Source of the DNA: a virus
Reading direction: 5' to 3' (one strand)
DNA length: 40,115 bases
Virus record (IMG/VR): IMGVR_UViG_3300029478_000007
Notes under the pieces: generated by a model
What the model was told of the DNA's origin: nothing
Databases searched by the model: none
What the model saw: only the letters and a program-made list of their open reading frames with translations
Shown: one piece after another, positions 12,952 to 40,115 of the stretch
Layout of the letters: every line of letters starts with the position of its first letter
Numbering within the stretch: position 1 is the first letter of the stretch
Position numbers and translations under genes: made by a program

Positions 12952-13833
12952 ATGAGCACACAAACCGAAATTACCAGATTGCAGACCGCGCGGAACAAGC
13001 TGCGCACATGGCTCGTCGGCCTCGGCCTCGCCGCGAGCACGGACAAACTCGACGCGCTGACCGACAAGGCTGCCGCCATCAAAAATCAGGGCGCGGTTGA
13101 CGCCAATGTCAAGGAGGGCGAGTCCTACACCATCCCCGCGGGCTATCACAACGGCTCCGGCACGGTCAAGGGCGTCTCCGGCGGCGGCAATTACAACCTG
13201 CAGGCCAAATCCGTCACGCCGACGAAGGAGCAGCAGTCCATCACACCAGATCAGGGCTATTACGGCCTGTCCGGCGTGACCGTCGGCGCGATTCCGGAAA
13301 ACTATCAGGACGTCTCCGCCACGACCGCCGCGCCCGGCGACGTGCTGGCGAATAAAGTCTTCATCGATGCCGACGGCGTAACGCAGGCAGGCACCATGCC
13401 GGACAACGGCGCGGTCGAAAAGGTGCTGGACGCCACGACCGGCAATCAGGAGTACACTGTCCCAGCCGGTAAGCACTCCGGCACGGGCAAGGTATCCGTC
13501 GTGCTGGAAACCAAGTCCGCCACGCCTGCCGAGGCCGCGCAGGACATTACGCCCACAAAGGGCAAAGTCCTCGGCAAAGTCACGGTAAGCGCGATCCCGG
13601 ACAAATACAAGGACGTTTCCGGCGTGACTGCCGGAGCGGCTGACGTGCTGGACGGAAAGTTTATCGTGCTGGCCGACGGCAGCAAGGCAGAGGGCACCAT
13701 GGCCAACAACGGCGCGATCTCGAAGACCATCGACGGCCTCACGCAGACTAGCGCCGATATCCCTGCGGGCTACACCTCCGGCGGAACGGTATCGCTGACA
13801 GACGACATCGAAAACGCTCTCGCCGCGATTTAA
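12952..13833 (+). CDS. Repeat-containing appendage-like protein (about 2.5 copies of a module of roughly 93 aa)
   Basis: Recurring YT(I/V)PAG(Y/K)HxGxGxV, KS(V/A)TP...ITP...VTVxAIPxxYxDVS and GTMxxNGA blocks. Confidence 0.6.
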   Translation: MSTQTEITRLQTARNKLRTWLVGLGLAASTDKLDALTDKAAAIKNQGAVDANVKEGESYTIPAGYHNGSGTVKGVSGGGNYNLQAKSVTPTKEQQSITPDQGYYGLSGVTVGAIPENYQDVSATTAAPGDVLANKVFIDADGVTQAGTMPDNGAVEKVLDATTGNQEYTVPAGKHSGTGKVSVVLETKSATPAEAAQDITPTKGKVLGKVTVSAIPDKYKDVSGVTAGAADVLDGKFIVLADGSKAEGTMANNGAISKTIDGLTQTSADIPAGYTSGGTVSLTDDIENALAAI

Positions 13834-29873: not shown

Positions 29874-30695
29874 ATGAGTTTGAATGGCGATGGTATTCCT
29901 ATGAACATGCCTGTTGTTCCGGCTGGCACGAACAACGGTAATGGATGGGGAGGCTTTGGCGGCGATAACGGCTGGTGGATTATTCTGTTCTTCATTGTTC
30001 TGATGGGGTGGAATCGGAACGGTTGGGGCGGCAATAATGGCAGCGGCGCTGCGGACAACTATGTTCTTGCAAGTGACTTTGCTACGCTTCAGAGGCAGAT
30101 TGACAGCGCGGCGTCCACACTCGAGCGTAAGGGCGAAATTACCCAGCAGGGGCTTTGCGACGGATTTTACGCAATGAACACTACGTTGCTGAACGGTTTC
30201 GCCGGTGTCAATCAGAACATGAACACTGGCTTCCAGTCCGCCGAGCTTTCCCGTTGCAATCAGCAGGCGGCGCTCATGCAGCAGCTTAACGCGATGCAGA
30301 TGCAGGCGGCGAACTGCTGCTGCGAAAACCGCGCTTCAATCGCCCAGGTGCGCTACGACATGGCGACGCAGGCATGCGACACCCGCAACACCGTGCAGAA
30401 CACCACGCGCGACATCATCGACGCGATGAACTGCGGCTTCCGCAGCATCGACCAGCGTCTGACGGCGCAGGAGCTTGCGGCGAAGGACGCGAAGATCGCC
30501 GAGCAGAACCAGCAGCTCTTTGTTGCGCAGCTTGCGGCAAGCCAGAACGCTCAGACGCTCGATCTGCGTAACTATGTGAGCGGGCAGTTGGCATATTACA
30601 ACCCGCGCCCTGTTCCGGCATTCAGCGTTCCGGCCCCGTACCAGTACGCAGGATGCAACAGCGGTTACAACTACGGCTGCGGCAACTGCGCGTAA
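29874..30695 (+). CDS. Membrane protein: G/W/N-rich N-terminus plus TM (YjcZ-like look), Q/N/A-rich coiled coil, Cys clusters
   Basis: NGNGWGGFGGDNGWWIILFFIVLMGWNRNGWGGNNG, then CCCENR, QACDTRN and MNCGFRS, and a C-terminal AGCNSGYNYGCGNCA. Confidence 0.65.
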   Translation: MSLNGDGIPMNMPVVPAGTNNGNGWGGFGGDNGWWIILFFIVLMGWNRNGWGGNNGSGAADNYVLASDFATLQRQIDSAASTLERKGEITQQGLCDGFYAMNTTLLNGFAGVNQNMNTGFQSAELSRCNQQAALMQQLNAMQMQAANCCCENRASIAQVRYDMATQACDTRNTVQNTTRDIIDAMNCGFRSIDQRLTAQELAAKDAKIAEQNQQLFVAQLAASQNAQTLDLRNYVSGQLAYYNPRPVPAFSVPAPYQYAGCNSGYNYGCGNCA

Positions 30696-30769
30696 CAACT
30701 CCACATCGTAGAGCTTTTTCGTGGCCTCACGAAAATGGTCGGCCCCCATTGCCGATACTCGATAGCAAC

Positions 30770-30804
30770 GCGGCGGGGCAATCGTCCCGCCGCTGTATTT
30801 TTTA
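30770..30804 (+). terminator. Rho-independent terminator (GCGGCGGG / CCCGCCGC stem, then TGTATTTTTT)
   Basis: The stem is 30770-30777 / 30786-30793, and the T-run extends to 30804. Confidence 0.75.
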
Positions 30805-30820
30805 TGAAAGGAATGATTTT

Positions 30821-31045
30821 ATGGCAACATATAAGGAACTCAAGAAGAAATTCATCGATCACCTGATGGGCGTGGATCTGTACAAGATGAACATCACGGA
30901 TCTCTATACATACGCCTGTATCCTGAAAACGGTGGACGAAATGGAGCAGCCGAGCTGCGCAGAGGCGATGAAGACGGCGATGGAGCCGATTTTGAACTAC
31001 TGCAAAGCAGGCAATTCGGGAAGCGGGGTGTTTGGGATTGGCTGA
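30821..31045 (+). CDS. Small protein (74 aa) ending GNSGSGVFGIG
   Basis: The ATG at 30821 follows GAAAGGAATG. The ORF-track start at 30653 was rejected because it spans the terminator. Confidence 0.5.
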   Translation: MATYKELKKKFIDHLMGVDLYKMNITDLYTYACILKTVDEMEQPSCAEAMKTAMEPILNYCKAGNSGSGVFGIG

Positions 31046-31460
31046 GTTTACAAATTCCAACGTCGTCGGCGTCGCCGCCGGGCAGAACGTCCCTCTGATC
31101 TCCACGGCAGCTTGCGGAAAGCCGTGCATCGTACATCGCGAAGGAAGCGGGCTCGTTACGCTGCGCGGGCTTACGCAGCAATGCAAGGCGAAGTTCCGCG
31201 TATCCTTTGGCGCGAATATCGCCGTACCTACAGGCGGAACAGTAGGTGCCATTACCGCTGCGCTCGCAATCAACGGCGAACCTCTGAGCAGCGCCACAGC
31301 GACCGTAACCTCTGCGGCTGTTGAGAACTATTTCAACATCTTCGTTTCCACATTCGTGGAAGTCCCGCGTGGCTGCTGCCTGACTGTAGCGGCGAAGAAC
31401 ACCAGCGCGCAGGCAGTAAGTTTCGCAAATAGCAATATGATCGTCGAGCGCGTATCGTGA
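31032..31460 (+). CDS. Stand-alone jelly-roll protein resembling the BclA C-terminal (TNF/C1q-like) domain
   Basis: Beta-rich pattern ...VTLRG...KFRVSFGANIAVPTGG...ALAINGEPL...FVEVPRGCCLTVAAKNTS...NMIVERVS, recognised by eye. TTG start at 31032 or 31038. Confidence 0.5.
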   Translation: MGLAEFTNSNVVGVAAGQNVPLISTAACGKPCIVHREGSGLVTLRGLTQQCKAKFRVSFGANIAVPTGGTVGAITAALAINGEPLSSATATVTSAAVENYFNIFVSTFVEVPRGCCLTVAAKNTSAQAVSFANSNMIVERVS

Positions 31461-31474
31461 AAGGAGGATGCAAT

Positions 31475-31846
31475 ATGTACGATTTGAGAAACCTGCGTGA
31501 AATGCTCTGCAAAGAGCTGGACGAAATCGCCGACAAGCGCGAAATGTCTGCGGGCGATCTGGACGCGATCCAGAAGCTGACAAGCTCCATCAAGAATACC
31601 TACAAGATCGAGACGGCTGAAGACGGCGGCTATTCCCGCGACGGCGAGTGGGAAGCGGATATGCGCGGCACATATGGACGCGGAAGTTCATACCGTGGGC
31701 GCCGCCGCGACGCAATGGGCCGCTACAGCCGCACAGACGCCCGCGAGCATATGCATGCGCAGCTGGAGGATATGATGCGCGACGCGGACGACGATAAAAC
31801 CCGTGACGCGATCCGCCGCTGCATGGAGCAGATCGAGCGGGCATAA
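31475..31846 (+). CDS. Hypothetical charged protein (123 aa, R/D/G-rich centre)
   Basis: The ATG at 31475 follows AAGGAGG (31461-31467). Confidence 0.6.
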   Translation: MYDLRNLREMLCKELDEIADKREMSAGDLDAIQKLTSSIKNTYKIETAEDGGYSRDGEWEADMRGTYGRGSSYRGRRRDAMGRYSRTDAREHMHAQLEDMMRDADDDKTRDAIRRCMEQIERA

Positions 31847-31858
31847 GGAGAGCGCAAT

Positions 31859-32206
31859 ATGTTGGATGCAGCCGAAATCCGGAAAGAGATTGCTCGCCTG
31901 GAATATGAGGAATCCGACTATAAGAATTACGCTAAGCTTGCGGATCTGTATGTGATCCGCAAGCAGATGCAGGAAGAGGAACGGGGCGACGGCGGTAGGT
32001 ATGTGGGTTACTACTCCGGCGCTCCCGCCCCTGTGACCGCAGAACCGGCTACCGTGGGCGAGTACGGGGACAGTGAGTTTTTGCTTGCAGTAGCTGGGAA
32101 AGACCCGGCGAAGGCTTGGGCGGTCGTTGATGAACTTATGGACACATTATCGCTTGTGAACCGAAAAGTCTATGATTCTATGCTTCGGAAAATAAAGTCC
32201 ATGTAG
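31859..32206 (+). CDS. Hypothetical protein (115 aa)
   Basis: The ATG at 31859 follows AAGGAG. It is the last + strand gene before attP. Confidence 0.6.
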   Translation: MLDAAEIRKEIARLEYEESDYKNYAKLADLYVIRKQMQEEERGDGGRYVGYYSGAPAPVTAEPATVGEYGDSEFLLAVAGKDPAKAWAVVDELMDTLSLVNRKVYDSMLRKIKSM

Positions 32207-32243
32207 CAAAAAATAGGGGAGTCCCCTCGCATTGCGCTGAATC

Positions 32244-32265
32244 TGTAGCATACAATGTAGCATAC
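32244..32265 (+). repeat. Two direct copies of TGTAGCATAC (32244-32253, 32256-32265): candidate integrase arm-type sites, left arm
   Basis: Exact 10-mers. A third exact copy lies at 32506-32515 on the other side of the core. Confidence 0.6.
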
Positions 32266-32348
32266 GGGAAATAATTTTATGTTACAGAGCGTGTCATAAC
32301 GTGATTTTTTGCTTTTTGAAAATACGCAGAAAATAGGGTGAAAGACAT

Positions 32349-32391
32349 AAAAAAGTACCGACTTTAGATTTAAAACATCTAAAATCGGTAC
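32349..32391 (-). terminator. Terminator hairpin (14/15 bp) plus T6 immediately downstream of the tRNA 3' end on the minus strand
   Basis: gtaccgactttagat (32355-32369) pairs with atctaaaatcggtac (32377-32391). An A6 run at 32349-32354 gives the U-tract on the minus strand. Confidence 0.7.
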
Positions 32392-32393
32392 TT

Positions 32394-32458
32394 TGGCGCG
32401 GAAGGAGAGATTTGAACTCTCGCGCGCTTTTTAGACGCCTACTCCCTTAGCAGGGGAG
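32394..32458 (-). other. attP core: 3' part of a tRNA-Ser(GCU) gene (anticodon arm, long variable arm, T-arm, acceptor 3' strand, CCA); the 5' half is absent
   Basis: The minus strand reads CTCCC-CTGCTAA-GGGAG ... GAGAG-TTCAAAT-CTCTC-CTTCCGC-G-CCA. No GCGGAAG acceptor 5' strand or D-arm lies upstream. Confidence 0.75.
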
Positions 32459-32505
32459 AAAAACCCATTGAAAACACTGGGGAAATTGGCGTTTGTAACA
32501 TATTT

Positions 32506-32515
32506 TGTAGCATAC
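32506..32515 (+). repeat. Third copy of TGTAGCATAC (right arm, next to the int stop); degenerate copy TGTAACATA at 32494-32502
   Basis: Exact 10-mer in the same orientation as the left-arm copies. Confidence 0.6.
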
Positions 32516-32520
32516 ATAAT

Positions 32521-33624
32521 TCACTCTGTCGAGTCGTTTTGTAACTGATTTACGGCATTGACCATGCCTTTCATGTCCGGGTGTACATACCGTTGGGTAG
32601 TCGTTATCTTCGTGTGGCGCATGATTTCCTTGATCATAAACGGGTCGATGTTTTTCATTGCGAGGGCTGTAGCGGTTGTATGGCGGCATGAGTAAGGTGG
32701 TAGCTTTTGCACTCCGGCAAGCTCCAAACACTCATAATATCTCTTGTAAAAATTATCTTTGTTTATGCAGCAGATATTTCCGACGCGCGATTTGCTTTCT
32801 TCGCATAGTTCATGCAGCACTGGCGCAACGAAATCCGGGAATACCATAGGCGTTTCCTTCCGCTTCTTTGTCTTTATGCCGCCTCGGACGATCTCATTTT
32901 TCTCAAAGTCAATCATGTCCTTTTTGAGCTTCAGAAGCTCACCAGGCATCATGCCGGTATAGATCATCGTAAGGATAAACCCGACAAAGTGATCTTTTGC
33001 ATACGCTTCCCATAGCTTTTTTACGTCGGCGTCGGTAAACGGCTCCGGCGACTTCTCTTCCAATTCCGGAAGCTTTATGTACTTTGCAAGATTCACGGTA
33101 GTCTGCTTTTCGGCAATCGCGAGATTGTAGCAATGGGAAAGGACTGTTTTCATGTCCTTCCGCGTGTAATAGGTGCTGGCGTTGCGGTCGATAACATCCT
33201 GTATCTGCGCGATGGTAAGCGCGTCGATCTCACGGTCGGCGATTTCTTTCATGCGCTCGAAAGCCTTTTCTGCCGCTCCCTGACGATCAGCCGATAAGGA
33301 TAGATAATCCCCACGCAGATATGTTTTGTAGTATTCTCTGAGAGTGGGGCTTCGCTGCTCTTCCTTCGGAGGGTTTGCTGCATATTGGAGGGCGGCGCGC
33401 TTTGATGTAAACCCGCCTTTTGTTCGCATCTTTTGCCGAAGCTTGTCGTTCTCGTCTAGGTAAGTTCTTTCTGTCCAACGCGCCGTCCACGTCTTCCCTC
33501 GCTGGTAAGCGCTTCCTTGCCCGTTCCCGCGTGTCCGGCTTCGCCGCGCTTCCTGCTTTTTCCCGCACCAGCAACAGTAGGGCGCGCCGTCTGGAATTTC
33601 TTTTTTACACTTGATGCACTCCAT
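32521..33624 (-). CDS. int: Tyrosine integrase with an N-terminal zinc ribbon
   Basis: CIKCKKEIPDGAPYCCWCG, SCRHTTATALA and MRHTKITTTQRYVH motifs. The ATG at 33624 follows GGAGGG. The ORF-track start at 33654 is possible. Confidence 0.9.
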   Translation of the reverse strand: MECIKCKKEIPDGAPYCCWCGKKQEARRSRTRGNGQGSAYQRGKTWTARWTERTYLDENDKLRQKMRTKGGFTSKRAALQYAANPPKEEQRSPTLREYYKTYLRGDYLSLSADRQGAAEKAFERMKEIADREIDALTIAQIQDVIDRNASTYYTRKDMKTVLSHCYNLAIAEKQTTVNLAKYIKLPELEEKSPEPFTDADVKKLWEAYAKDHFVGFILTMIYTGMMPGELLKLKKDMIDFEKNEIVRGGIKTKKRKETPMVFPDFVAPVLHELCEESKSRVGNICCINKDNFYKRYYECLELAGVQKLPPYSCRHTTATALAMKNIDPFMIKEIMRHTKITTTQRYVHPDMKGMVNAVNQLQNDSTE

Positions 33625-34180
33625 GTTTCCCTCCACGTTCTTTTCGGATCGCATAGAAAGTAATTGCCGAAGCCAGCGCTGAACCTACGATCAGGGCAAT
33701 GCAAACCCATGCAGCTACGGACAAATCTCCATCGCGAATGAGGCCTGCGCTCCGACTCTGCGCATCCGTCACAAGGCAGGCAATCAGAGAAAAGGAGAGC
33801 AGCATACAAAACAGGGCGAGGACGTAACACATTGTATGTGTAGACTTTATCTGCGCGCTTTGCGCGGCCGCTGTTGCCTCCAGTTTGGCGTTTTCAAGCT
33901 CGACATGATGGATCTGCTTGGTCAGCTTTTCCGGGCTTCCGACGGGATTTTCAAGGCCGAACAGCTCGTCGAGTGACAACCCGAGCGTTTTGCATAGCGC
34001 AGCCGAGTTGTAAAGCCGTGGATCCGCTTGTGTTCCAGCGTATAATCGGCTTACGGCAGAGAAGGAAACGCCGGACTCGTTCGACAGCTCCTCCAACGTC
34101 ATCCCGCTTGCATCTTTTGCCCTTCTGATCTTCCCCTGATACGCGCCGATAAACGGAGCGAGATCCTGTATTGCGGACAT
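33605..34180 (-). CDS. Membrane-anchored XRE-family HTH regulator
   Basis: The N-terminal HTH is MTLEELSNESGVSFSAVSRLYAG. A coiled coil follows, then two hydrophobic segments, CYVLALFCMLLSFSLIACLV and AAWVCIALIVGSALASAITFYAI. Confidence 0.75.
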   Translation of the reverse strand: MSAIQDLAPFIGAYQGKIRRAKDASGMTLEELSNESGVSFSAVSRLYAGTQADPRLYNSAALCKTLGLSLDELFGLENPVGSPEKLTKQIHHVELENAKLEATAAAQSAQIKSTHTMCYVLALFCMLLSFSLIACLVTDAQSRSAGLIRDGDLSVAAWVCIALIVGSALASAITFYAIRKERGGKHGVHQV

Positions 34181-34476
34181 GATTACGCCTCCATTCGTAA
34201 GTTTCAGTTTTATTTCTTACATTTTCCATATAAAAATGCAAAACATGTGACAAGAACGCAGGATTCGCCCTTTTCTTACAAGCATTATCTGGTACAATAA
34301 AAACGTAGCAGATAGTTCCTGAATCCGGCATCTGCTGAAACGGCCCCACCGTATGTTCCAGATACGATGGGGCCGGTCAAACCGAATATTATATCAAATC
34401 ATCAGTCCCATAAACTGTACACCATCGGATTCCTGATTCCCAAAAATAACGCGGTCTGTTTGTTTATAATACCATG

Positions 34477-34504
34477 TTGATTTTTAGAACAATCGTTCTA
34501 TAAT
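34477..34504 (+). promoter_or_regulatory. SigmaA-type promoter TTGATT-16-TATAAT with an AGAAC-AATC-GTTCT inverted repeat in the spacer
   Basis: Read directly. It lies 20 nt upstream of the ATG at 34525. Confidence 0.5.
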
Positions 34505-34524
34505 AAATGACAGGAGGAAAAAAT

Positions 34525-34707
34525 ATGGAGTGCATCAACATCCGGGTAAACAATGGGCGGGTCGACGTGACGGTCGACGGCGCGAAGCTGACAGACGTGC
34601 ACAGCGTCAGCGTGGACTACATCAAGGGTATTCCGCTCCTGTTTGCCTGCGTCGCGGACGTAGGCAGGGAGCAGGACGAGCGGCGGGAACCGAGAATCCT
34701 GCACTGA
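34525..34707 (+). CDS. Small hypothetical protein (60 aa)
   Basis: The ATG at 34525 follows AGGAGG (34513-34518). Confidence 0.5.
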   Translation: MECINIRVNNGRVDVTVDGAKLTDVHSVSVDYIKGIPLLFACVADVGREQDERREPRILH

Positions 34708-34709
34708 AT

Positions 34710-35555
34710 TTATTGTGCGTCCCTCGAGTTCGCTTCCTCCAGCACATTGCCGGTCTGGTCTACAAACTGCACACGCACGTTGTCGACCGGAGTTCCGTTG
34801 AATGCGTTGTACATACCGCCGTACATATAAAATGCCAGTGTAAGGAGTGAGTCCTGAAGTCCAACCACATCAGTAGAAAGCGTTACAGTAAAGGACGTGT
34901 AATCGCTGGACGCTTCGGCGGAAATGACGTTTGGGTAGTCAGAGGAACCGGCCATGTCCGCAAGCTGGGCGTCAATGTTCTGCACCAGCTCCTGCATAAG
35001 CTCTTTGTGCCGTGCCGCCGTCATAACGTAGGTCGCGGAGCCGTCAGGATTCAGTTCTATAGACAGAAGCCCGTCTGTTTCCTTTACCTTTTCGTCCAAT
35101 GCCTGCTGCGTCGCATCTTCGCCGATAAAGTCGGCTGGGATCGTGAGCTTGATCTTATTGCCCCATGTTTTTTCAGCCGTTATCGGTGTGGTTGCCGTTT
35201 CCTCGGTCTGTGCGTCGTCTTCCGTCTTTGCCGACTCCGATGCGGAGATTGTATCCGGCTCCTGCCTCTTGATCGGATCGGCTGGTTTCTTCGCGGGCTT
35301 TGATGCGATAAGGACAACTGCCAGCACAACGGCAGCGAACGGAACAGAAAGAATCGCGATTTTTTGAACCGAAATCATCTTTTTGTTTCTTGCGCCGCAT
35401 TCCGGACAGACGCGGGCGCTTGCATTGATTTGCGTTCCGCAGGAGCGGCAGATCATCTTCCGGTTCGGCGTGTCACAGTGCGGGCAGAACTTCTCCCGTT
35501 CCGGGAACTCTGCCCCGCATCTTGGGCACTGCACAATATATTCATTTTTAGTCAT
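34710..35555 (-). CDS. Double zinc-ribbon, single-pass membrane protein with an extracytoplasmic domain
   Basis: CPRCGAEF...CPHCDTP and CRSCGTQ...CPECGARN, with TM segment IAILSVPFAAVVLAVVLIA. The ATG at 35555 follows AAGGAG. Confidence 0.75.
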   Translation of the reverse strand: MTKNEYIVQCPRCGAEFPEREKFCPHCDTPNRKMICRSCGTQINASARVCPECGARNKKMISVQKIAILSVPFAAVVLAVVLIASKPAKKPADPIKRQEPDTISASESAKTEDDAQTEETATTPITAEKTWGNKIKLTIPADFIGEDATQQALDEKVKETDGLLSIELNPDGSATYVMTAARHKELMQELVQNIDAQLADMAGSSDYPNVISAEASSDYTSFTVTLSTDVVGLQDSLLTLAFYMYGGMYNAFNGTPVDNVRVQFVDQTGNVLEEANSRDAQ

Positions 35556-35749
35556 CAATGCGGCACTCCTTATATGGTTTGTAAACAATTACATATTACC
35601 ACTTAGAACCAGCAACCGCAATGTAGAAGCTGCACAAAAATAAACGTCGGAATTTGGAAGAACGGAGATAGGAACTGAAATGAACGAAAAAGAAGCCGCG
35701 ACAATCAAGGAATTGGTGGAAACTATATCAAGATTCACGCCCGAAAAAC

Positions 35750-36163
35750 TCAATCTTTTTCTATCTGCTTCGCAAGATTTAATAGAGCGGATGCAAGCTC
35801 GGGACGATTCATGCAAATCCGAATAATCTGCTGGATATCCTCCGGCAAGTCACGAATAAGCGCTTCGCCATCGGCGGGGCGCTCTTTTTTTATGCCCTTT
35901 TCGCGTTCTTGCTCCAGCAGCCCGCGCACAAGCTCAATGTCGGCCTGCTCCGTCAGAATCTCCTCCGGCGTGGTTTGCAGCATGGCGCACATACGGGCAG
36001 CTTCTTCGGGGGAGGGAAAGTTCTTCGCACGCTTCCATTCCGTAATCCACCCGCGAGATTTTTTCATAACTGTTTCGGAAAAGTATGCTTTGCTCCATCC
36101 TTTCCCCTCTACGAGAGAATTTACTTCTTCAATATTTGGCGTGACAACAAGACGTTTAGACAT
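35750..36163 (-). CDS. HTH (XRE-like) repressor candidate
   Basis: GWSKAYFSETVMKKSRGWITEWKRAKNFPSPEEAARMCAML. Its SD lies inside the last codons of the upstream gene. Confidence 0.65.
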   Translation of the reverse strand: MSKRLVVTPNIEEVNSLVEGKGWSKAYFSETVMKKSRGWITEWKRAKNFPSPEEAARMCAMLQTTPEEILTEQADIELVRGLLEQEREKGIKKERPADGEALIRDLPEDIQQIIRICMNRPELASALLNLAKQIEKD

Positions 36164-36167
36164 TTTG

Positions 36168-36782
36168 CTACCCCTTATATTCGATTAGATATGTACGCCC
36201 ATGCTTAGTGCGCGTTATTGTCCCGTCTTTAGCCATGAAGTACAAAATTGTTGATATGTCGTTTTGAACGACAGGATCAAAGCGTTTATACAAATCCGTT
36301 TGAATAATAGAATGGCTTTCCGAAAGAACGCTCTCAATTTTTGACTTTAAATTGTTGGTTTGTGAAATATATAAAGATTCTTTTGCGGATAATTGGTCTT
36401 TGTTTTTAAGCAACTCTTTTAACTCGCATTCAAAGCGATCAACATAACAAAAATCTGCATCTTTTGAATTGTGAGCGTGTTCCCACATCTCAGAAAAATA
36501 AGTTTGGTATTCTGGACCAAGAGAATAGCATTTCGATTTAAGACTGTAAAATGCATCAATAAGCTTTTGCAATGTTTCAATTCTCTCGTTCAGTAGAAGC
36601 TTTGCATTCAACGAAACGGCGCAATTTGCCATATAACTTTCTATTGGACGGATTTCTTTTTCAATCATCATGTATTGCTCTAACATATCCGATTGGCTTT
36701 TGCTGGGGCTGTTTATGGTGGGGCGCTTGTCTTTGGATGAAGCTTGGCGCATGACGCTTTTTTGCTTTTTTAGAAACCACAT
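36168..36782 (-). CDS. Low-GC hypothetical protein (204 aa from the ATG at 36782; 225 aa if 36845) with a C-terminal winged-helix-like segment
   Basis: The ATG at 36782 follows GAGG. Composition is clearly AT-rich relative to the rest of the genome. Confidence 0.65.
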   Translation of the reverse strand: MWFLKKQKSVMRQASSKDKRPTINSPSKSQSDMLEQYMMIEKEIRPIESYMANCAVSLNAKLLLNERIETLQKLIDAFYSLKSKCYSLGPEYQTYFSEMWEHAHNSKDADFCYVDRFECELKELLKNKDQLSAKESLYISQTNNLKSKIESVLSESHSIIQTDLYKRFDPVVQNDISTILYFMAKDGTITRTKHGRTYLIEYKG

Positions 36783-36859
36783 AAAAACCTCACAAAAAAA
36801 GTCAATCCAATTTGTACAACATTTCATCGTAAGTATTGTTGACATACGACATAACGTTG

Positions 36860-36888
36860 TATATAATATGCTTACAGAGCTTAATCAA
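36860..36888 (-). promoter_or_regulatory. Minus-strand promoter TTGATT-17-TATATA in front of the low-GC gene
   Basis: The -35 is the reverse complement of 36883-36888 and the -10 is the reverse complement of 36860-36865. Confidence 0.5.
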
Positions 36889-37021
36889 GGCAACAAAAAA
36901 CCAAGCCCCATCCGAATCTTCGTTTTGCGGGCGTATGGACAATATTTTGTTGGCTGACACTTACATAATAACGGCTATACATGGTTTTGTCAAGATAAAG
37001 CTCTTAATTTGGCTGCGGCGT

Positions 37022-37055
37022 AAAGAAAAGCCGCCCGTGGTTCGTTCACGAGCGG
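37022..37055 (-). terminator. Minus-strand intrinsic terminator (9-bp stem including one G-U pair, loop AACGAAC, then C-UUUUCUUU)
   Basis: The minus strand reads cCCGCTCGTG-AACGAAC-CACGGGCGG-C-TTTTCTTT. Confidence 0.65.
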
Positions 37056-37322
37056 GTTTCCCCAGAGTTGTTTGCCAGAACGCGCTGCACGGGATGGTCG
37101 TCTGCATTACTTCGCATCCGTCCGAATTGGTAGAGTTCGTTCCACCGGCTCGGCAATGCTATCCTGACACAAAACGAACTTACGCTTCTATGACGCACCG
37201 CTCATTTTGGCAGTTCTGGCGCTGCCCCTTGCCCTAACGCATCACGCCGTTTCTTTGGTCTGGAACTGGCAAGTTCAAAAGTTTGGTCGTGACAACCACC
37301 TCCTGAATTTACCTAAAAGGGC
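37022..37322 (-). ncRNA. Candidate non-coding transcript or long leader of about 300 nt in the lysis-lysogeny switch region
   Basis: It is bounded by a near-consensus minus-strand promoter (37330-37359) and the terminator at 37022-37055. No minus-strand ORF of 60 aa or more is present. GC is normal and several stems are visible. Confidence 0.4.
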
Positions 37323-37329
37323 TAAGGAC

Positions 37330-37359
37330 AGTATAGCGCGTCTGGGGCGCTGCGGTCAA
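37330..37359 (-). promoter_or_regulatory. Minus-strand promoter TTGACC-18-TATACT, back-to-back with the cro-like gene
   Basis: The -35 is the reverse complement of 37354-37359 and the -10 is the reverse complement of 37330-37335. A weaker + strand TTTACC-18-TATAGC overlaps it. Confidence 0.55.
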
Positions 37360-37392
37360 CAAAACTTAATTAAGGAATGGAGGAATGAGCGC

Positions 37393-37602
37393 TTGACATT
37401 GAAAGAGCTTCGGGCGCGGGCCGGGCTTCTGCAAAAAGATGTTGCAAGGCGAGCTGATGTCTCGATCATCGCCGTCTCGAATTGGGAGCTCGGTAAAAAC
37501 GGAATCGCCCGGAAGTACAAGAAAAAGCTCGTCCGTCTCTACGGCTGCACGCCGCAGGAGCTGGACGAGGCAATTGAGGAAAGCAGAAAGGAGGAAAAAT
37601 GA
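37393..37602 (+). CDS. Cro-like XRE HTH protein (69 aa, TTG start)
   Basis: LKELRARAGLLQKDVARRADVSIIAVSNWELG. The TTG at 37393 lies 9 nt after GGAGG. The ORF-track start at 37207 was rejected. Confidence 0.65.
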   Translation: MTLKELRARAGLLQKDVARRADVSIIAVSNWELGKNGIARKYKKKLVRLYGCTPQELDEAIEESRKEEK

Positions 37603-37799
37603 CGCTGGACGATATCCGGGCAATGTCGAAGCCAACGATCCTAGCAAGCGAAGCGGCGCAGGTGCTCGGCTGTGACCCGCAATGGCTTCGCTTGATGGCG
37701 CGGGAACGGCCTGAAAAGCTGGGCTTCCCGGTCTGCTGCACAAGCAAGCACAGAGTGAAGATCCCGAGAGAGCCGTTTTTGCGGTTTCTCGGAGCATGA
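37599..37799 (+). CDS. Excisionase-type / MerR-like HTH protein
   Basis: ILASEAAQVLGCDPQWLRLMARE...VKIPREPFLRFL. ATGA overlap with the cro-like gene. Confidence 0.55.
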   Translation: MTLDDIRAMSKPTILASEAAQVLGCDPQWLRLMARERPEKLGFPVCCTSKHRVKIPREPFLRFLGA

Positions 37800-37809
37800 G
37801 GAGGAACAA

Positions 37810-38397
37810 ATGAAGGTCAGATTAACATTTTTGGAGCCGGTTCTTGGCACATGGCCGAGCAACGAGAACATTGCGCGTGACTTTATCGCAAGCAAGGCCC
37901 CGGACGCAAGCACGATCGAGGATGAGATCGCAGCGCTCGGCGCGGACGCTGTCGCCGAAAAGGGAAAAACCGTTTTCCCGCGTACCGACGGACAGCCGAT
38001 TCTGTACGATTATCAGGTCAAAGGTTTTTTCAAAGACGCCTGCGGTATGCTGGCGCGCGTGAAAGCCAAGAAATCCAGTGCCCTGAAAGCCTATAAAAAG
38101 ATCATCGACGGCCTGATCTTTGTAGAGCCGCGCATGATTCCCATTGAGGTCAACGGCGAGATCGGCGAATGCCAGAGGCCGCTTCGCGCACAGACCGCAC
38201 AGGGCGAGCGCGTCAGCCTTGCGAACTCCGAGGAGATCCCGGCAGGCAGCTCCATCGAGCTTGATATCGTGATGCTCGATGAAAAGGCACACAAAGAGGC
38301 AGTGCTGGAATGGCTGGAGTATGGCCGCCTGCGCGGCATCGGCCAGTGGCGGAACTCCGGCAAGGGCAGATTTACCTACGAGGTTCTGGCGGATTAA
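37810..38397 (+). CDS. Hypothetical early protein (195 aa) with a C-terminal glycine-rich loop GIGQWRNSGKGRF
   Basis: Clean ORF with AGGAGGA upstream. No family was recognised with certainty. Confidence 0.6.
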   Translation: MKVRLTFLEPVLGTWPSNENIARDFIASKAPDASTIEDEIAALGADAVAEKGKTVFPRTDGQPILYDYQVKGFFKDACGMLARVKAKKSSALKAYKKIIDGLIFVEPRMIPIEVNGEIGECQRPLRAQTAQGERVSLANSEEIPAGSSIELDIVMLDEKAHKEAVLEWLEYGRLRGIGQWRNSGKGRFTYEVLAD

Positions 38398-38725
38398 GTG
38401 CAAGGGCTTGGCGAGGCATGGAATCGCTCCGCGAGGGAAAAGCATAGAGGCGCTCAGGAACACAATGAACTGCAATGGCATGGCAAAGCTCAGCTCGGCT
38501 TAGCAATGGAATGGCATAGCAGGGCAAAGACTGGCAACGCAGGGGCATGGCAAAGCAACGGAATGTGACGCAACGACAGGCAACAGCATGGCAAATCATC
38601 GAAGGCTATGCGCAGCTACGGCACAGCAACGAATGCAAAGCAAGGGAAGAGCGAAGCAAAGCATCGCTTCGCAGCGGCAACGAATTGCGAAGCAACGAAC
38701 AGAAATCGAAAAAGGAGAGGATAGC
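38398..38725 (+). repeat. T-depleted, GCA-rich tract with degenerate iterons (ATGGCAWAGC and GCAACGA words)
   Basis: Only 16 T in 38521-38700 (hand count). gcaatggcatggcaaagc (38472-38489) and gcaatggaatggcatagc (38503-38520) lie 31 nt apart. Further ATGGCAAAKC copies are at 38547 and 38588, and there are about six GCAACG words. Confidence 0.75.
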
Positions 38726-38950
38726 ATGAGAACAAACCTTGTCGTGGAAACGATCGAGGAGCGCCGGGAACGGCTGCGGGAGGAATTGGACGCCCGCAAG
38801 GCGACACTGCGGATCGTCAAGGGCCTGTGCCTTTGGGTGAGCGGCGCGGCGATGATCCTGTCGGCGGTGGCCGGGATGGCGGAAATGACGTATGAATGCG
38901 CTCTGACCGGTCTGGTCGCACTCGTCGCGTTGCTGTACGGGCTGGCATGA
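38726..38950 (+). CDS. Small membrane protein (74 aa)
   Basis: The ATG at 38726 follows AAAGGAGAGG. Charged helix followed by hydrophobic segments. Confidence 0.6.
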   Translation: MRTNLVVETIEERRERLREELDARKATLRIVKGLCLWVSGAAMILSAVAGMAEMTYECALTGLVALVALLYGLA

Positions 38951-39120
38951 CGGAAGCGGATCTGTTGAAGACTCCCTGCGAGATATGCAGAGAGCGCGGG
39001 CTATGGCGCTCCGGCTGCACCACAGACGGCCGATTCTCCTGCGGCATCTATTGGGAGATCCTGTTTGAGCAATGGGACGCGACCTGCCGGCTCATCCGGG
39101 AGCGCACGAAAAAGAAATGA
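38947..39120 (+). CDS. Small Cys-containing protein (57 aa)
   Basis: ATG at 38947 with an ATGA overlap to the upstream stop. Confidence 0.5.
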   Translation: MTEADLLKTPCEICRERGLWRSGCTTDGRFSCGIYWEILFEQWDATCRLIRERTKKK

Positions 39121-39195
39121 CCCCTGCCGCGCGGCAACGCGACAGAGGCCGAAAGGAAACTTAAGACGCCTTTATTATAGGGCAGAAAGGAACCT

Positions 39196-39537
39196 ATGTC
39201 AAGTTTAACGGATTCCCGCGTCCGGCATGGTGCGAAAGCCTGCGTCGCCGCGGTACGGGCTGACTACCCGAAGTTCAACAAATGCCTGCTTTCTCAGTGC
39301 GAAGCGCCGGAGAAATACGGCGTGCAGCTTGTTCCGGAGGCAGCCGCGGCGATCAAGGCGCTGGACGCGCCCAAGAACCGCGCAGATCGCCGGAAGAAGA
39401 CGAACCGGTATTACTTCCGCTTGACGGACGAGCAGGCCAAGAAGCTAGACAGGCTGCTGAAAAAGCTCGGCTATTCAACGGTTCAGAGCTTCTGTGAAGC
39501 GCTGATCCGCCAGGAGGTGAGCCGGAATGGCGTATGA
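39196..39537 (+). CDS. Hypothetical protein with a C-terminal ribbon-helix-helix-like segment
   Basis: YYFRLTDEQAKKLDRLLKKLGYSTVQSFCEALIRQEV. Confidence 0.55.
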   Translation: MSSLTDSRVRHGAKACVAAVRADYPKFNKCLLSQCEAPEKYGVQLVPEAAAAIKALDAPKNRADRRKKTNRYYFRLTDEQAKKLDRLLKKLGYSTVQSFCEALIRQEVSRNGV

Positions 39538-39673
39538 CGGCGAAAACCTGTACTTGAGCATTCCAGAGCCGGAGTACGAGCCGGACGAGCTGGAGGATGA
39601 AGACCGTTATTTGTTCCCGCCGCTGTGGCTGGTGGGAAAGATGAAACAGGAGGATCAACATGAAAGTTTATAA
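39527..39673 (+). CDS. Small acidic protein (48 aa)
   Basis: Hand-read ORF, ATG at 39527 after GGAGGTGA. It overlaps both neighbours. Confidence 0.3.
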   Translation: MAYDGENLYLSIPEPEYEPDELEDEDRYLFPPLWLVGKMKQEDQHESL

Positions 39674-40115
39674 AGGCACGAATAAGGATATGAAGTGCCG
39701 CGGGTTTCAATACAAACTCGGCGAAACCGCCGTTTTTGATGGAGGGCCGCATCTTTGCAAGGCTGGCCTGCACGCGTGCGAACAACCGATTGATGTGCTG
39801 AACCACTACACACCGAATGAAAGCCGGTACTTTGAGGCAGAGGCAGAAGAGGTATCTGCCGAACGTGAATCATCGGATAGCAAGATTGTTGCGAAGAAAA
39901 TGACACTGAAAGCCGAGATTGGCGTTCCTGGCCTTGTGAAAGCGCAGATCGAATATGTCAAGAGCCAAATCGGATTTGACGACGCGATCAAGCGCGCAAA
40001 CGCCGAAAAAGAGAATCATGCCACAGGCGATTGGGGTGCAGCCTCCGCCACAGGCTATCGGGGCGCAGCCTCCGCCACAGGCGATTGGGGTGCAGCCTCC
40101 GCCACAGGCGATTGG
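39660..40115 (+). CDS. N-terminal part of the nonapeptide-repeat protein (continues at 1..470)
   Basis: MKVYKGTNKDMKCRGFQYKLGETAVFDGGPHLCKAGLHACEQPIDVLNHYTPNESRYFEAEAEEV... The frame runs open into the repeat at the contig end. Confidence 0.8.
   Translation, partial: MKVYKGTNKDMKCRGFQYKLGETAVFDGGPHLCKAGLHACEQPIDVLNHYTPNESRYFEAEAEEVSAERESSDSKIVAKKMTLKAEIGVPGLVKAQIEYVKSQIGFDDAIKRANAEKENHATGDWGAASATGYRGAASATGDWGAASATGDW
40035..40115 (+). repeat. Three more units of the same 27-bp repeat at the right end of the contig
   Basis: Units at 40035, 40062 and 40089, in the same frame as the ORF starting at 39660. The last unit duplicates unit 1 at the left end. Confidence 0.95.

What the first reader, a model, noticed from the sequence alone, without database searches (positions are those of the whole stretch)
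36168..37010. Low-GC gene with its own promoter, fused onto the 5' end of the repressor operon: candidate prophage-encoded exclusion or defence gene
Hand counts give 19/60 and 16/60 G+C for 36301-36360 and 36361-36420, against 42/60 for 13021-13080. The AT-rich segment runs from the stop of this gene (36168) to about 37010 and carries a TTGATT-17-TATATA promoter. Its last codons (tat aag ggg tag) double as the SD of the HTH repressor gene at 36163. It would therefore be co-expressed with immunity in the lysogen, an arrangement like lambda rexAB-cI. The product has no recognisable family apart from a winged-helix-like C-terminus. This combination is the typical signature of a recently acquired moron or defence gene.
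Basis: partly seen in the sequence, partly recalled or inferred. Interest (0 to 1): 0.65.

Follow-up and report, generated by a model that had tools for sequence, protein, structure and literature searches.

The report
AT-rich cargo gene inside prophage immunity cassette
A real, AT-rich gene of unknown family heads the repressor operon of a gut-bacterial prophage, in a slot where related phages carry other cargo such as a nuclease, so it is a reasonable but untested candidate for a new phage-defence or exclusion gene.

Summary
Gene 1 (36168..36782, minus strand, 204 aa) has 36.9% GC against 53.7% for the window, the lowest of any 615-bp stretch (z = -3.8). Its last codons carry the ribosome-binding site of the next gene, a SinR/CI-like HTH repressor.

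- Gene 1 is not a loose, recent insertion. It lies inside a ~1.1-kb swappable immunity cassette (35900..36994) made of face-to-face promoters, gene 1 and the DNA-binding domain of the repressor.
- The same cassette occurs at 88% nucleotide identity in an unrelated phage backbone.
- Relatives with other repressor N-termini carry no cargo, or unrelated AT-rich cargo (336 aa, 239 aa, or a membrane Mrr-type nuclease).

The protein has a disordered N-terminus, six helices and a C-terminal winged helix (pLDDT 92). It matches no Pfam, NCBIfam, PHROG or PADLOC family and has no whole-fold match. About 350 homologue clusters exist. Nearly all contexts inspected are prophage lysogeny modules. Some homologues are fused to Mrr nuclease or TerB_N domains.

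A defence or exclusion role is the best inference but is unproven.

The parts
36168..36782 (-). Gene 1: 204-aa AT-rich cargo gene (stop TAG 36170-36168). Disordered basic N-terminus (1-29), six-helix domain (30-155), winged helix (156-204).
   Evidence: ORF and translation. Called as 204 aa on more than 100 contigs. GC 36.9%. AF2 pLDDT 91.9. dN/dS 0.29 against the L009 allele.
36788..36793 (-). Shine-Dalgarno GTGAGG, 5 nt upstream of the gene 1 ATG (36782)
   Evidence: Sequence. Partly conserved upstream of the homologues: GTGAGG in the window and L009, GTGACA, GTTACA and GTGGGA in the others.
36965..36993 (-). Probable lysogenic promoter P_L: TTGACA-17-TATTAT (11/12 match), at the edge of the cassette
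   Evidence: Promoter scan. Both hexamers conserved in window, L009, L020 and L083, degenerate in L081.
36839..36867 (+). Probable lytic promoter P_R: perfect TTGACA-17-TATAAT. It faces P_L from inside the gene 1 leader and points toward the cro-like gene (TTG 37393).
   Evidence: Promoter scan, 12/12. Both hexamers conserved in all five aligned cassettes.
36860..36888 (-). It is present, but the -35 is not conserved and the -10 overlaps the complement of the P_R -10.
36815..36861 (.). 20-nt imperfect dyad (TACAAC...GTTGTA) across the -35 and spacer of P_R; candidate repressor operator
   Evidence: the repeat finder I1, 75% complementary. Its ends fall in conserved blocks of the alignment. Function is inferred.
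36171..36176 (-). AAGGGG inside the last codons of gene 1; Shine-Dalgarno for gene 2 (ATG 36163, 7 nt downstream)
35750..36163 (-). Gene 2: 137-aa SinR/CI-like repressor, with an N-terminal Cro/C1-type HTH and a C-terminal helical domain. Codons 1-88 (35900..36163) belong to the swappable cassette. The C-terminal part belongs to the shared backbone.
   Evidence: Weak HTH_31 match. AF2 plus Foldseek match to SinR, CylR2, P22 c2 and lambda cI DNA-binding domains. One source names a homologue 'SOS-response transcriptional repressor'. The C-terminus is shared with the 111-aa HTH_3/Phage_CI_repr protein of L039-type phages.
35900..36994 (-). Immunity cassette exchanged as a unit: promoters and operator, gene 1, and the HTH domain of gene 2
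   Evidence: blastn breakpoints. Against L039 and L057, homology ends at 36995 and resumes at 35899. Against L009 (an unrelated backbone), 37010..35859 is shared at 88%.

Best explanation
Gene 1 is a real protein-coding cargo gene embedded in the immunity cassette of a temperate phage of gut Oscillospiraceae (probably Dysosmobacter). It is the first gene of the leftward operon, which starts at a conserved sigma-70-type promoter (36993..36965). It is followed 4 nt later by the SinR/CI-like repressor gene, so a lysogen that makes repressor should also make gene 1 protein (inferred from layout, not measured).

The protein is not needed for the switch itself, because sister phages on the same backbone run the switch with no cargo or with unrelated cargo. 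It combines a short basic-hydrophobic N-terminus, a six-helix domain with a conserved C...YF..MWEHCHNS motif, and a C-terminal BlaI/MarR-like winged helix with invariant Q161 and near-invariant R191, K193 and Y198.

Most likely mechanism (inferred): it benefits the lysogen as a sensor or binding protein that recognises a nucleic acid or protein of an incoming phage and blocks its development, through superinfection exclusion or defence. In some relatives the same module is fused to an Mrr-type nuclease that would act as the effector. The stand-alone form would act by binding or sequestration, or through an unidentified partner.
For: Real gene:
- The protein is 100% identical in 144 member sequences on 102 contigs.
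- It is intact in 14 of 14 IMG/VR copies, and dN/dS is 0.29 against the 83%-identical allele.
- The AF2 model is confident: pLDDT 91.9, pTM 0.79.

Operon layout:
- The gap to gene 2 is 4 nt, the ribosome-binding site is shared, and no minus-strand terminator is predicted between the promoter and the gene 2 stop.
- The promoter is conserved across cassettes.

Accessory status and variable slot:
- L039- and L059-type phages share the flanks at 92-96% but have only a different HTH N-terminus in place of the cassette.
- Gene-2-type repressors of other subtypes carry unrelated upstream genes: 336 aa (L113), 239 aa (L037), and a TM + Mrr_cat nuclease (L038, L116; Pfam 1e-27; PADLOC PDC-S02 6e-13, ZorD nuclease domain 2e-21).
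- A 32%-identical gene-1-like gene sits in a different lysogeny-module slot in L057 and L058.

Family niche:
- 11 of 12 distinct contexts inspected are lysogeny modules, co-oriented with the repressor and integrase. Examples are downstream of an S24 LexA-like repressor in L062, and next to serine recombinases in L088 and L107.

Fusions and neighbours:
- P0244 combines Mrr_cat, FtsK_gamma and the gene 1 module, in a lysogeny module.
- P0198, P0252 and P0282 combine the gene 1 module with TerB_N. P0198 lies beside a GIY-YIG/SLFN-helicase gene and SocA_Panacea and SNIPE genes.
Against: - No hit to any PADLOC model (best E = 0.0016, a 15-bit chance-level match to PglZ) or to Pfam, NCBIfam or PHROGs.
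- There is no whole-protein structural analogue and no recognisable effector or catalytic domain.
- The recognition helix of the winged helix is not basic, so DNA binding is uncertain (sequence).
- No expression or phenotype data exist.
- Linkage to the gene-2-type HTH domain is tight for all homologues at or above 45% identity, which also fits a regulatory partnership.
- Lysogeny-module cargo can serve the host in ways other than phage defence.
Confidence: 0.5

Rival explanations
1. Gene 1 is a component of the lysis-lysogeny switch. It would be a cofactor, sensor or anti-repressor that works with the gene-2-type repressor, which has no S24 self-cleavage domain. This would be functionally analogous to ImmA with ImmR.
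For: All homologues at or above 45% identity (window, L009, L014, L020, L081, L083) are followed within 4-10 nt by a gene 2 homologue. The cassette moves gene 1 and the HTH domain together. Gene 2 has no peptidase domain.
Against: - Other gene-2 subtypes have unrelated proteins, including a nuclease, in the same position.
- Backbone sisters with other HTH N-termini have no such gene.
- More distant gene 1 homologues sit downstream of unrelated repressors (S24-type in L062; HTH_3 in L088, L092, L097) or in another slot (L057, L058).
- There is no HEXXH or Peptidase_M78 signature.
Confidence: 0.15
2. Gene 1 is a winged-helix transcription factor that reprograms host or prophage genes in the lysogen (lysogenic conversion or a second regulator), rather than acting against other phages.
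For: The C-terminal domain superposes on BlaI/MecI, ArsR and MarR DNA-binding domains (RMSD about 2 Å over about 62 residues). A profile search hits MarR regulators weakly. The wing residues R191 and K193 are nearly invariant.
Against: The recognition helix is hydrophobic and acidic (consensus KxDIQSILYFMxK). Many homologues carry an N-terminal TM helix or a hydrophobic-basic motif, which is unusual for soluble regulators. Fusions are to nuclease and TerB_N domains, not to ligand-binding regulator domains.
Confidence: 0.15
3. Gene 1 and gene 2 form a toxin-antitoxin or addiction pair (toxin first, HTH antitoxin second, as in higBA or mqsRA) that stabilises the prophage.
For: Two tightly coupled genes, with the second an Xre-type HTH protein.
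Against: - Gene 2 occupies the repressor position divergent from cro.
- It shares its C-terminal domain with the lone CI-like repressor of sister phages.
- Gene 1 has no toxin-like fold or family hit.
- Gene 1 homologues occur without gene 2.
Confidence: 0.05
4. The ORF is not functional as a protein. The AT-rich stretch is a long regulatory leader or promoter region for the repressor gene.
For: The AT-rich sequence holds several weak promoter-like sites.
Against: dN/dS is 0.29. The ORF is intact in every copy. 350 homologue clusters share conserved motifs, and the fold prediction is confident.
Confidence: 0.02

Closest known systems
Lambda rexA-rexB (exclusion genes co-transcribed with cI from P_RM)
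   Same: Accessory gene(s) in the repressor operon, so presumably expressed in the lysogen and dispensable for the switch (layout shown here, expression inferred; the lambda facts are from general knowledge).
   Different: No sequence or structural similarity. There is a single gene, it lies upstream of the repressor gene rather than downstream, and it sits inside the swappable immunity cassette.
Prophage and satellite defence hotspots (P2/P4; Rousset et al. 2022, PMC9122126)
   Same: A fixed position in related temperate phages holds unrelated, AT-rich cargo genes, one of them nuclease-based and defence-like.
   Different: A different phage group (Clostridia). The slot lies between the lysogenic promoter and the repressor's own coding sequence, so cargo and immunity specificity are exchanged together. 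None of the cargo here has been tested.
Morons (Hendrix-type extra genes of lambdoid phages)
   Same: Absent from close relatives, with deviant base composition.
   Different: It has no terminator of its own, and it uses the repressor operon's promoter rather than being an autonomous transcription unit.
Coliphage 186 / P2 face-to-face pR-pL switch
   Same: The conserved lysogenic and lytic promoters point at each other, with predicted start sites about 83 bp apart. The 186 and P2 facts are from general knowledge.
   Different: The proteins show no evident homology. Here a cargo gene precedes the repressor, and in this window a FuFi-1 RNA gene lies in the rightward leader.
BlaI/MecI, MarR and ArsR winged-helix DNA-binding domains
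   Same: The C-terminal 50-60 residues have the same fold.
   Different: The similarity covers only about 30% of the protein. The helical domain and the conserved MWEHCHNS motif have no counterpart, and the E-values are weak (at or above 0.02).

Membership tests
Known anti-phage defence systems (PADLOC-DB v2) | Significant match to a defence-protein model | tested here: not met
   The best hit is PglZ at E = 0.0016 and 15 bits over 75 residues, which is chance level. Nothing else was found.
Lambda RexAB-like repressor-operon exclusion | Homology to RexA or RexB | tested here: not met
   No Pfam, PHROG or PADLOC hit.
Lambda RexAB-like repressor-operon exclusion | Co-transcription with the repressor in the lysogen | not testable with these tools
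   The layout supports it: 4-nt gap, shared ribosome-binding site, no terminator, conserved upstream promoter. No transcript data are available.
Lambda RexAB-like repressor-operon exclusion | Exclusion of superinfecting phages | not testable with these tools
   Needs a phage challenge experiment.
Moron | Present in one phage and absent at the same place in close relatives | tested here: met
   L039-, L057- and L059-type phages share both flanks at 92-98% nucleotide identity but lack the gene.
Moron | Base composition different from the surrounding genome | tested here: met
   36.9% against 53.7% GC, z = -3.8.
Moron | Autonomous unit with its own promoter and terminator | tested here: not met
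   There is no terminator after gene 1. It shares the promoter and the mRNA with the repressor gene.
Winged helix-turn-helix (BlaI/MarR-like) domain | H1-strand-H2-H3-wing topology | tested here: met
   AF2 residues 145-202 have pLDDT of about 98. Foldseek matches BlaI at RMSD 2.1 Å over 62 columns with TM(target) 0.65, and also MecI, ArsR and MarR.
Winged helix-turn-helix (BlaI/MarR-like) domain | Sequence-specific DNA binding | not testable with these tools
   The wing residues R191 and K193 are conserved but the recognition helix is not basic.
ImmA/IrrE metalloprotease partner of an Xre repressor | Peptidase_M78 domain with an HEXXH motif | tested here: not met
   No Pfam hit and no HEXXH in the sequence.
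Type II toxin-antitoxin pair with HTH antitoxin | Recognisable toxin fold or family in the first gene | tested here: not met
   No family or fold match to any toxin.

The most novel reading that the evidence does not exclude
Gene 1 founds an uncharacterised family (about 350 clusters at 50% identity) of prophage-encoded sensor or exclusion proteins of gut Clostridia. More generally, these phages place anti-phage cargo inside the immunity cassette, between the lysogenic promoter and the repressor's DNA-binding domain. One recombination event would then swap superinfection immunity and heterologous defence together.
Probability: 0.35. Interest if true: 0.6.

Novelty: new member of a known kind. 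Interest (0 to 1): 0.45.

Why it matters
If gene 1 protects lysogens, it would add a new and fairly widespread single-gene anti-phage family from gut anaerobes that are hard to culture. Its helical + winged-helix module is reused with nuclease effectors in other prophages.

The 'head of the repressor operon' in these phages would also be marked as a searchable hotspot for further defence genes. Because the cargo sits inside the immunity cassette, immunity type and cargo are inherited together, which bears on how prophage-encoded defences spread in gut communities.

If it is not a defence gene, the finding is an ordinary lysogeny-module accessory gene of unknown function.

Tried and rejected
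- Family searches (Pfam, NCBIfam, PHROGs, PADLOC) on gene 1 gave nothing significant.
- A PDB profile search gave only weak TPR-like and MarR hits.
- Foldseek against PDB and BFVD matched only the winged helix. The PCI-domain proteins in the list have TM about 0.23 and were dismissed.
- GenBank phages (INPHARED): no nucleotide match for 30000-40115, and only one 37%-identical partial tblastn hit in an unannotated record.
- The genome-contig scan with gene 2 found nothing. The broad alignment A1 was too diverse for the search for related loci, so the narrower A2 was used.
- Z-alpha-like Z-DNA binding was considered because of the 'LYxxAKxG' pattern and a 1qbj hit. It was rejected because the wing lacks the PPxW motif (my own comparison from memory; for the hit).
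- A leader attenuator or terminator in the gene 1 5' UTR: the folding is not better than shuffles (z = -1.7 and -0.8), so no claim is made.
- The 239-aa and 336-aa alternative cargo proteins were tested as hidden homologues of gene 1. They are not (hhalign probability 0.06%, no hmmsearch hit).
- The 191-aa HTH-TM protein next to the integrase was considered as the true immunity repressor. It was rejected because it is conserved across heteroimmune cassette types.
- A literature search for TerB_N found nothing useful.

Full report
**1. What is in the sequence**

The window is a temperate phage genome of about 40 kb. Replication, packaging, structural and lysis genes lie on the plus strand. A minus-strand lysogeny block holds a tyrosine integrase (32521..33654), an HTH-TM protein (33605..34180), a zinc-ribbon membrane protein (34710..35588 as the ORF was scanned) and the two genes of interest. 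Early genes then follow on the plus strand, starting with a cro-like HTH gene (TTG 37393..37602).

Gene 1 is the minus-strand ORF ending at 36168. The longest ORF starts at 36845. ATG 36782, however, has GTGAGG 5 nt upstream, and gene callers on more than 100 public contigs aa.

- 19/60 for 36301-36360
- 16/60 for 36361-36420
- 42/60 for 13021-13080

Gene 1 has 36.9% GC against a window mean of 53.6% (sd 4.4 for 615-bp windows). That gives z = -3.8, the lowest value in the window. All three codon positions are shifted.

AAGGGG in the last codons lies 7 nt before the ATG of the next gene, at 36163.

**2. The neighbour is the immunity repressor**

Gene 2 (35750..36163, 137 aa) gives only a weak HTH_31 hit. 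Its AF2 model (pLDDT 80) has a five-helix N-terminal domain. That domain superposes on the DNA-binding domains of SinR, CylR2, P22 c2 and lambda cI (TM(target) 0.6-0.78). A linker and a C-terminal helical domain follow, and SinR is the best overall match.

In sister phages that share the backbone (L039 type), the same position holds a 111-aa HTH_3/Phage_CI_repr protein. Its C-terminal ~55 residues are homologous to those of gene 2, and it is the only gene between the divergent promoters and the zinc-ribbon gene.

The 191-aa HTH-TM protein beside the integrase is conserved across phages with different cassettes, so it is not the immunity determinant.

**3. Gene 1 lies inside a swappable immunity cassette**

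blastn against sister phages gives sharp breakpoints:
- Against L039 and L057, homology (94-95%) runs from the right down to 36995. It stops there and resumes at 35899.
- An unrelated phage with a serine recombinase and different replication genes (L009-L013) shares only 37010..35859 (88%) plus the cro-like gene.

The exchanged unit, about 35900..36994, therefore contains the promoter-operator region, gene 1 and the first 88 codons (the HTH domain) of gene 2.

In 14 of 14 IMG/VR loci whose gene 2 N-terminus is at least 93% identical, gene 1 is present at 98.5-100% identity. The C-terminus of gene 2 and the rest of the phage vary.

Homologues of gene 1 at 45-63% identity (L014, L020, L081, L083) are also followed within 4-10 nt by a gene 2 homologue.

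**4. Promoters**

The scan finds two strong promoters:
- a minus-strand TTGACA-17-TATTAT at 36993..36965 (11/12 match)
- a perfect plus-strand TTGACA-17-TATAAT at 36839..36867

The plus-strand promoter is conserved in all five aligned cassettes. The minus-strand promoter is conserved in four of them and degenerate in L081. The two promoters face each other, with predicted start sites about 83 bp apart, as in coliphage 186 and P2 (from general knowledge).

A 20-nt imperfect dyad (36815..36861) spans the -35 and spacer of the plus-strand promoter. It is a candidate operator.

Its -35 is TTAATT or TTTTTT in relatives, and its -10 is the complement of the plus-strand -10. It may contribute, but it is not the best candidate.

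No minus-strand terminator is predicted between 36993 and the end of gene 2. Co-transcription of gene 1 with the repressor gene is therefore well supported by layout, though it has not been measured.

**5. The slot is variable**

The gene 2 family is large, with 613 clusters. Its subtypes differ in the N-terminal 47 residues, and each carries a different upstream gene:

| Upstream gene | Loci |
|---|---|
| gene 1 (204 aa) | window type |
| 336-aa cysteine-rich protein | L113-L115 |
| 239-aa protein | L037 |
| 250-aa membrane protein with an Mrr_cat nuclease domain | L038, L116-L118 |

- A 236-aa protein resembling the L037 cargo also sits upstream of a different HTH protein in L058.
- The Mrr_cat protein scores Pfam 1e-27, PADLOC PDC-S02 6e-13 and ZorD nuclease domain 2e-21.
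- The cargo proteins compared here (the 336-aa and 239-aa proteins with each other, and both with gene 1) show no detectable similarity.
- All are 6-12 GC points below their phage.
- Phages with other HTH N-termini (L039, L059) have no cargo.
- In L057 and L058, a 32%-identical gene-1-like gene sits instead in the slot that holds the zinc-ribbon gene in this window.

This is the pattern of an accessory-gene hotspot. It argues against gene 1 being a necessary part of the switch.

**6. The protein and its family**

No Pfam, NCBIfam, PHROG or PADLOC family matches.

An exhaustive HMMER search finds 350 representative clusters at E <= 1e-3, 106 of them at E <= 1e-10.

The AF2 model is confident (pLDDT 91.9, pTM 0.79) and shows:
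- residues 1-29 disordered
- helices at 30-57, 64-88, 90-101, 115-126, 128-142 and 145-155
- a winged helix at 156-204

Foldseek matches only the winged helix (BlaI, MecI, ArsR, MarR). It finds no whole-protein analogue in the PDB or BFVD.

Conserved features:
- C85 (70 of 80 sequences)
- Y95 and F96
- W100-E-H-C-H-N-S106 (the window protein has A at the Cys position)
- invariant Q161
- near-invariant F168, L180, R191, K193 and Y198

Among 125 near-full-length members, 22 begin with a TM-like helix. A further 68 begin with an MGLFxFLKKK-like hydrophobic-basic motif; the window protein starts MWFLKKQK. This hints at membrane association. The pattern match was loose, so this is only a lead.

dN/dS between the window allele and the 83%-identical L009 allele is 0.29.

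**7. Context and fusions of the family**

In 11 of 12 distinct contexts, the homologue lies in a prophage lysogeny module, co-oriented with the repressor and integrase:
- after an S24 LexA-like repressor and before a zinc-ribbon protein and a serine recombinase (L062, L090)
- after HTH_3 repressors (L064, L088, L092, L096, L097)

Taxa named for the genome loci with long matches are all Clostridia: Eubacteriales, Caccovivens, Limiplasma and Faecalibacterium. Two short winged-helix-only matches fall in an Ignavibacteriaceae MAG and a Paludibacteraceae genome. A gene 2 homologue is annotated from Dysosmobacter.

Longer proteins reuse the whole module:
- P0244 combines Mrr_cat, FtsK_gamma and the gene 1 module. 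It lies between a cro-like gene and a serine recombinase.
- P0198, P0252 and P0282 combine the module with TerB_N. P0198 lies next to a GIY-YIG/SLFN-type helicase gene and SocA_Panacea and SNIPE genes.

These associations favour a role in inter-phage conflict, with the module acting as the recognition part.

**8. Low GC is not a date stamp**

In every context, the gene 1 homologue is 8-19 GC points below its locus, even at 30-50% protein identity. The co-inherited repressor gene sits near the phage average. 'Recently acquired' is therefore not supported. AT-richness is a standing property of cargo in this niche, and its cause is unknown.

**9. Verdict**

- Well supported (about 0.85): gene 1 is an accessory gene that is probably expressed in lysogens, embedded in a mobile immunity cassette at a variable cargo slot.
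- Best inference, unproven (about 0.4-0.5): it acts in defence or exclusion.
- Main rivals: a switch cofactor (0.15) and a winged-helix regulator of other genes (0.15).

It is a new member of a known kind, namely prophage accessory or defence cargo co-expressed with the repressor. Two less usual features are the cargo's position inside the immunity cassette and a protein family not yet described in any library searched.

Noticed in passing
window 37025..37241 (-), promoter 37359..37330 (-), terminator stem 37055..37031 (-): A FuFi-1 RNA (Rfam RF02986; 82.5 bits against a gathering score of 59.6; E = 1.6e-17) with its own promoter-like site and intrinsic terminator. It lies in the 355-bp spacer between the immunity cassette and the cro-like gene, on the lysogenic strand. 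It would be antisense to the ~520-nt leader of any transcript from the perfect plus-strand promoter at 36839. FuFi-1 is an orphan structured RNA of unknown function (PMC5737381). The spacer is shared with L039/L057/L058/L059-type phages but is absent from L009, where cro abuts the cassette.
   Followed up: partly
window 36839..36993: Face-to-face conserved promoters: plus-strand TTGACA-17-TATAAT and minus-strand TTGACA-17-TATTAT, with predicted start sites about 83 bp apart. This resembles a 186/P2-like convergent switch rather than a lambda-like back-to-back one.
   Followed up: partly
window 35680..35826 (+), terminator 35859..35883 (+): A 48-aa plus-strand ORF with a good ribosome-binding site and a strong intrinsic terminator. 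It converges on and overlaps the 3' end of the repressor gene. It is called on several related contigs and lies in the backbone segment shared by heteroimmune phages.
   Followed up: no
window 34710..35588 (-); L006, L007, L057, L058, L116: The slot downstream of the repressor gene is also variable. It holds a 281-aa or 369-aa double-zinc-ribbon membrane protein, a gene-1-like 195-aa protein (L057, L058), or an Ada_Zn_binding-like protein (L116-L118). Zinc-ribbon membrane proteins also follow gene 1 homologues directly in L062, L090 and L091.
   Followed up: partly
L038 4235..4987; L116 3235..3990: A membrane-anchored Mrr_cat nuclease (250 aa) heads the repressor operon in heteroimmune relatives. 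It matches the PADLOC candidate system PDC-S02 and the ZorD nuclease domain. In L117 and L118 it is truncated to 125 aa.
   Followed up: partly
window 33605..34180 (-): A 191-aa protein with an N-terminal HTH_3 domain, a coiled-coil-like middle and two C-terminal hydrophobic helices. It overlaps the integrase start by 50 nt and is conserved across heteroimmune phages. It gives a weak PADLOC capH hit (E = 6.5e-5).
   Followed up: no
gene 2 family (alignment A3): The repressor is itself mosaic. It has a variable N-terminal 47 residues (several subtypes, each with its own cargo), an invariant core (PSPEEAARMC.LLQTTPEEIL...) and at least three alternative C-terminal helical tails.
   Followed up: partly
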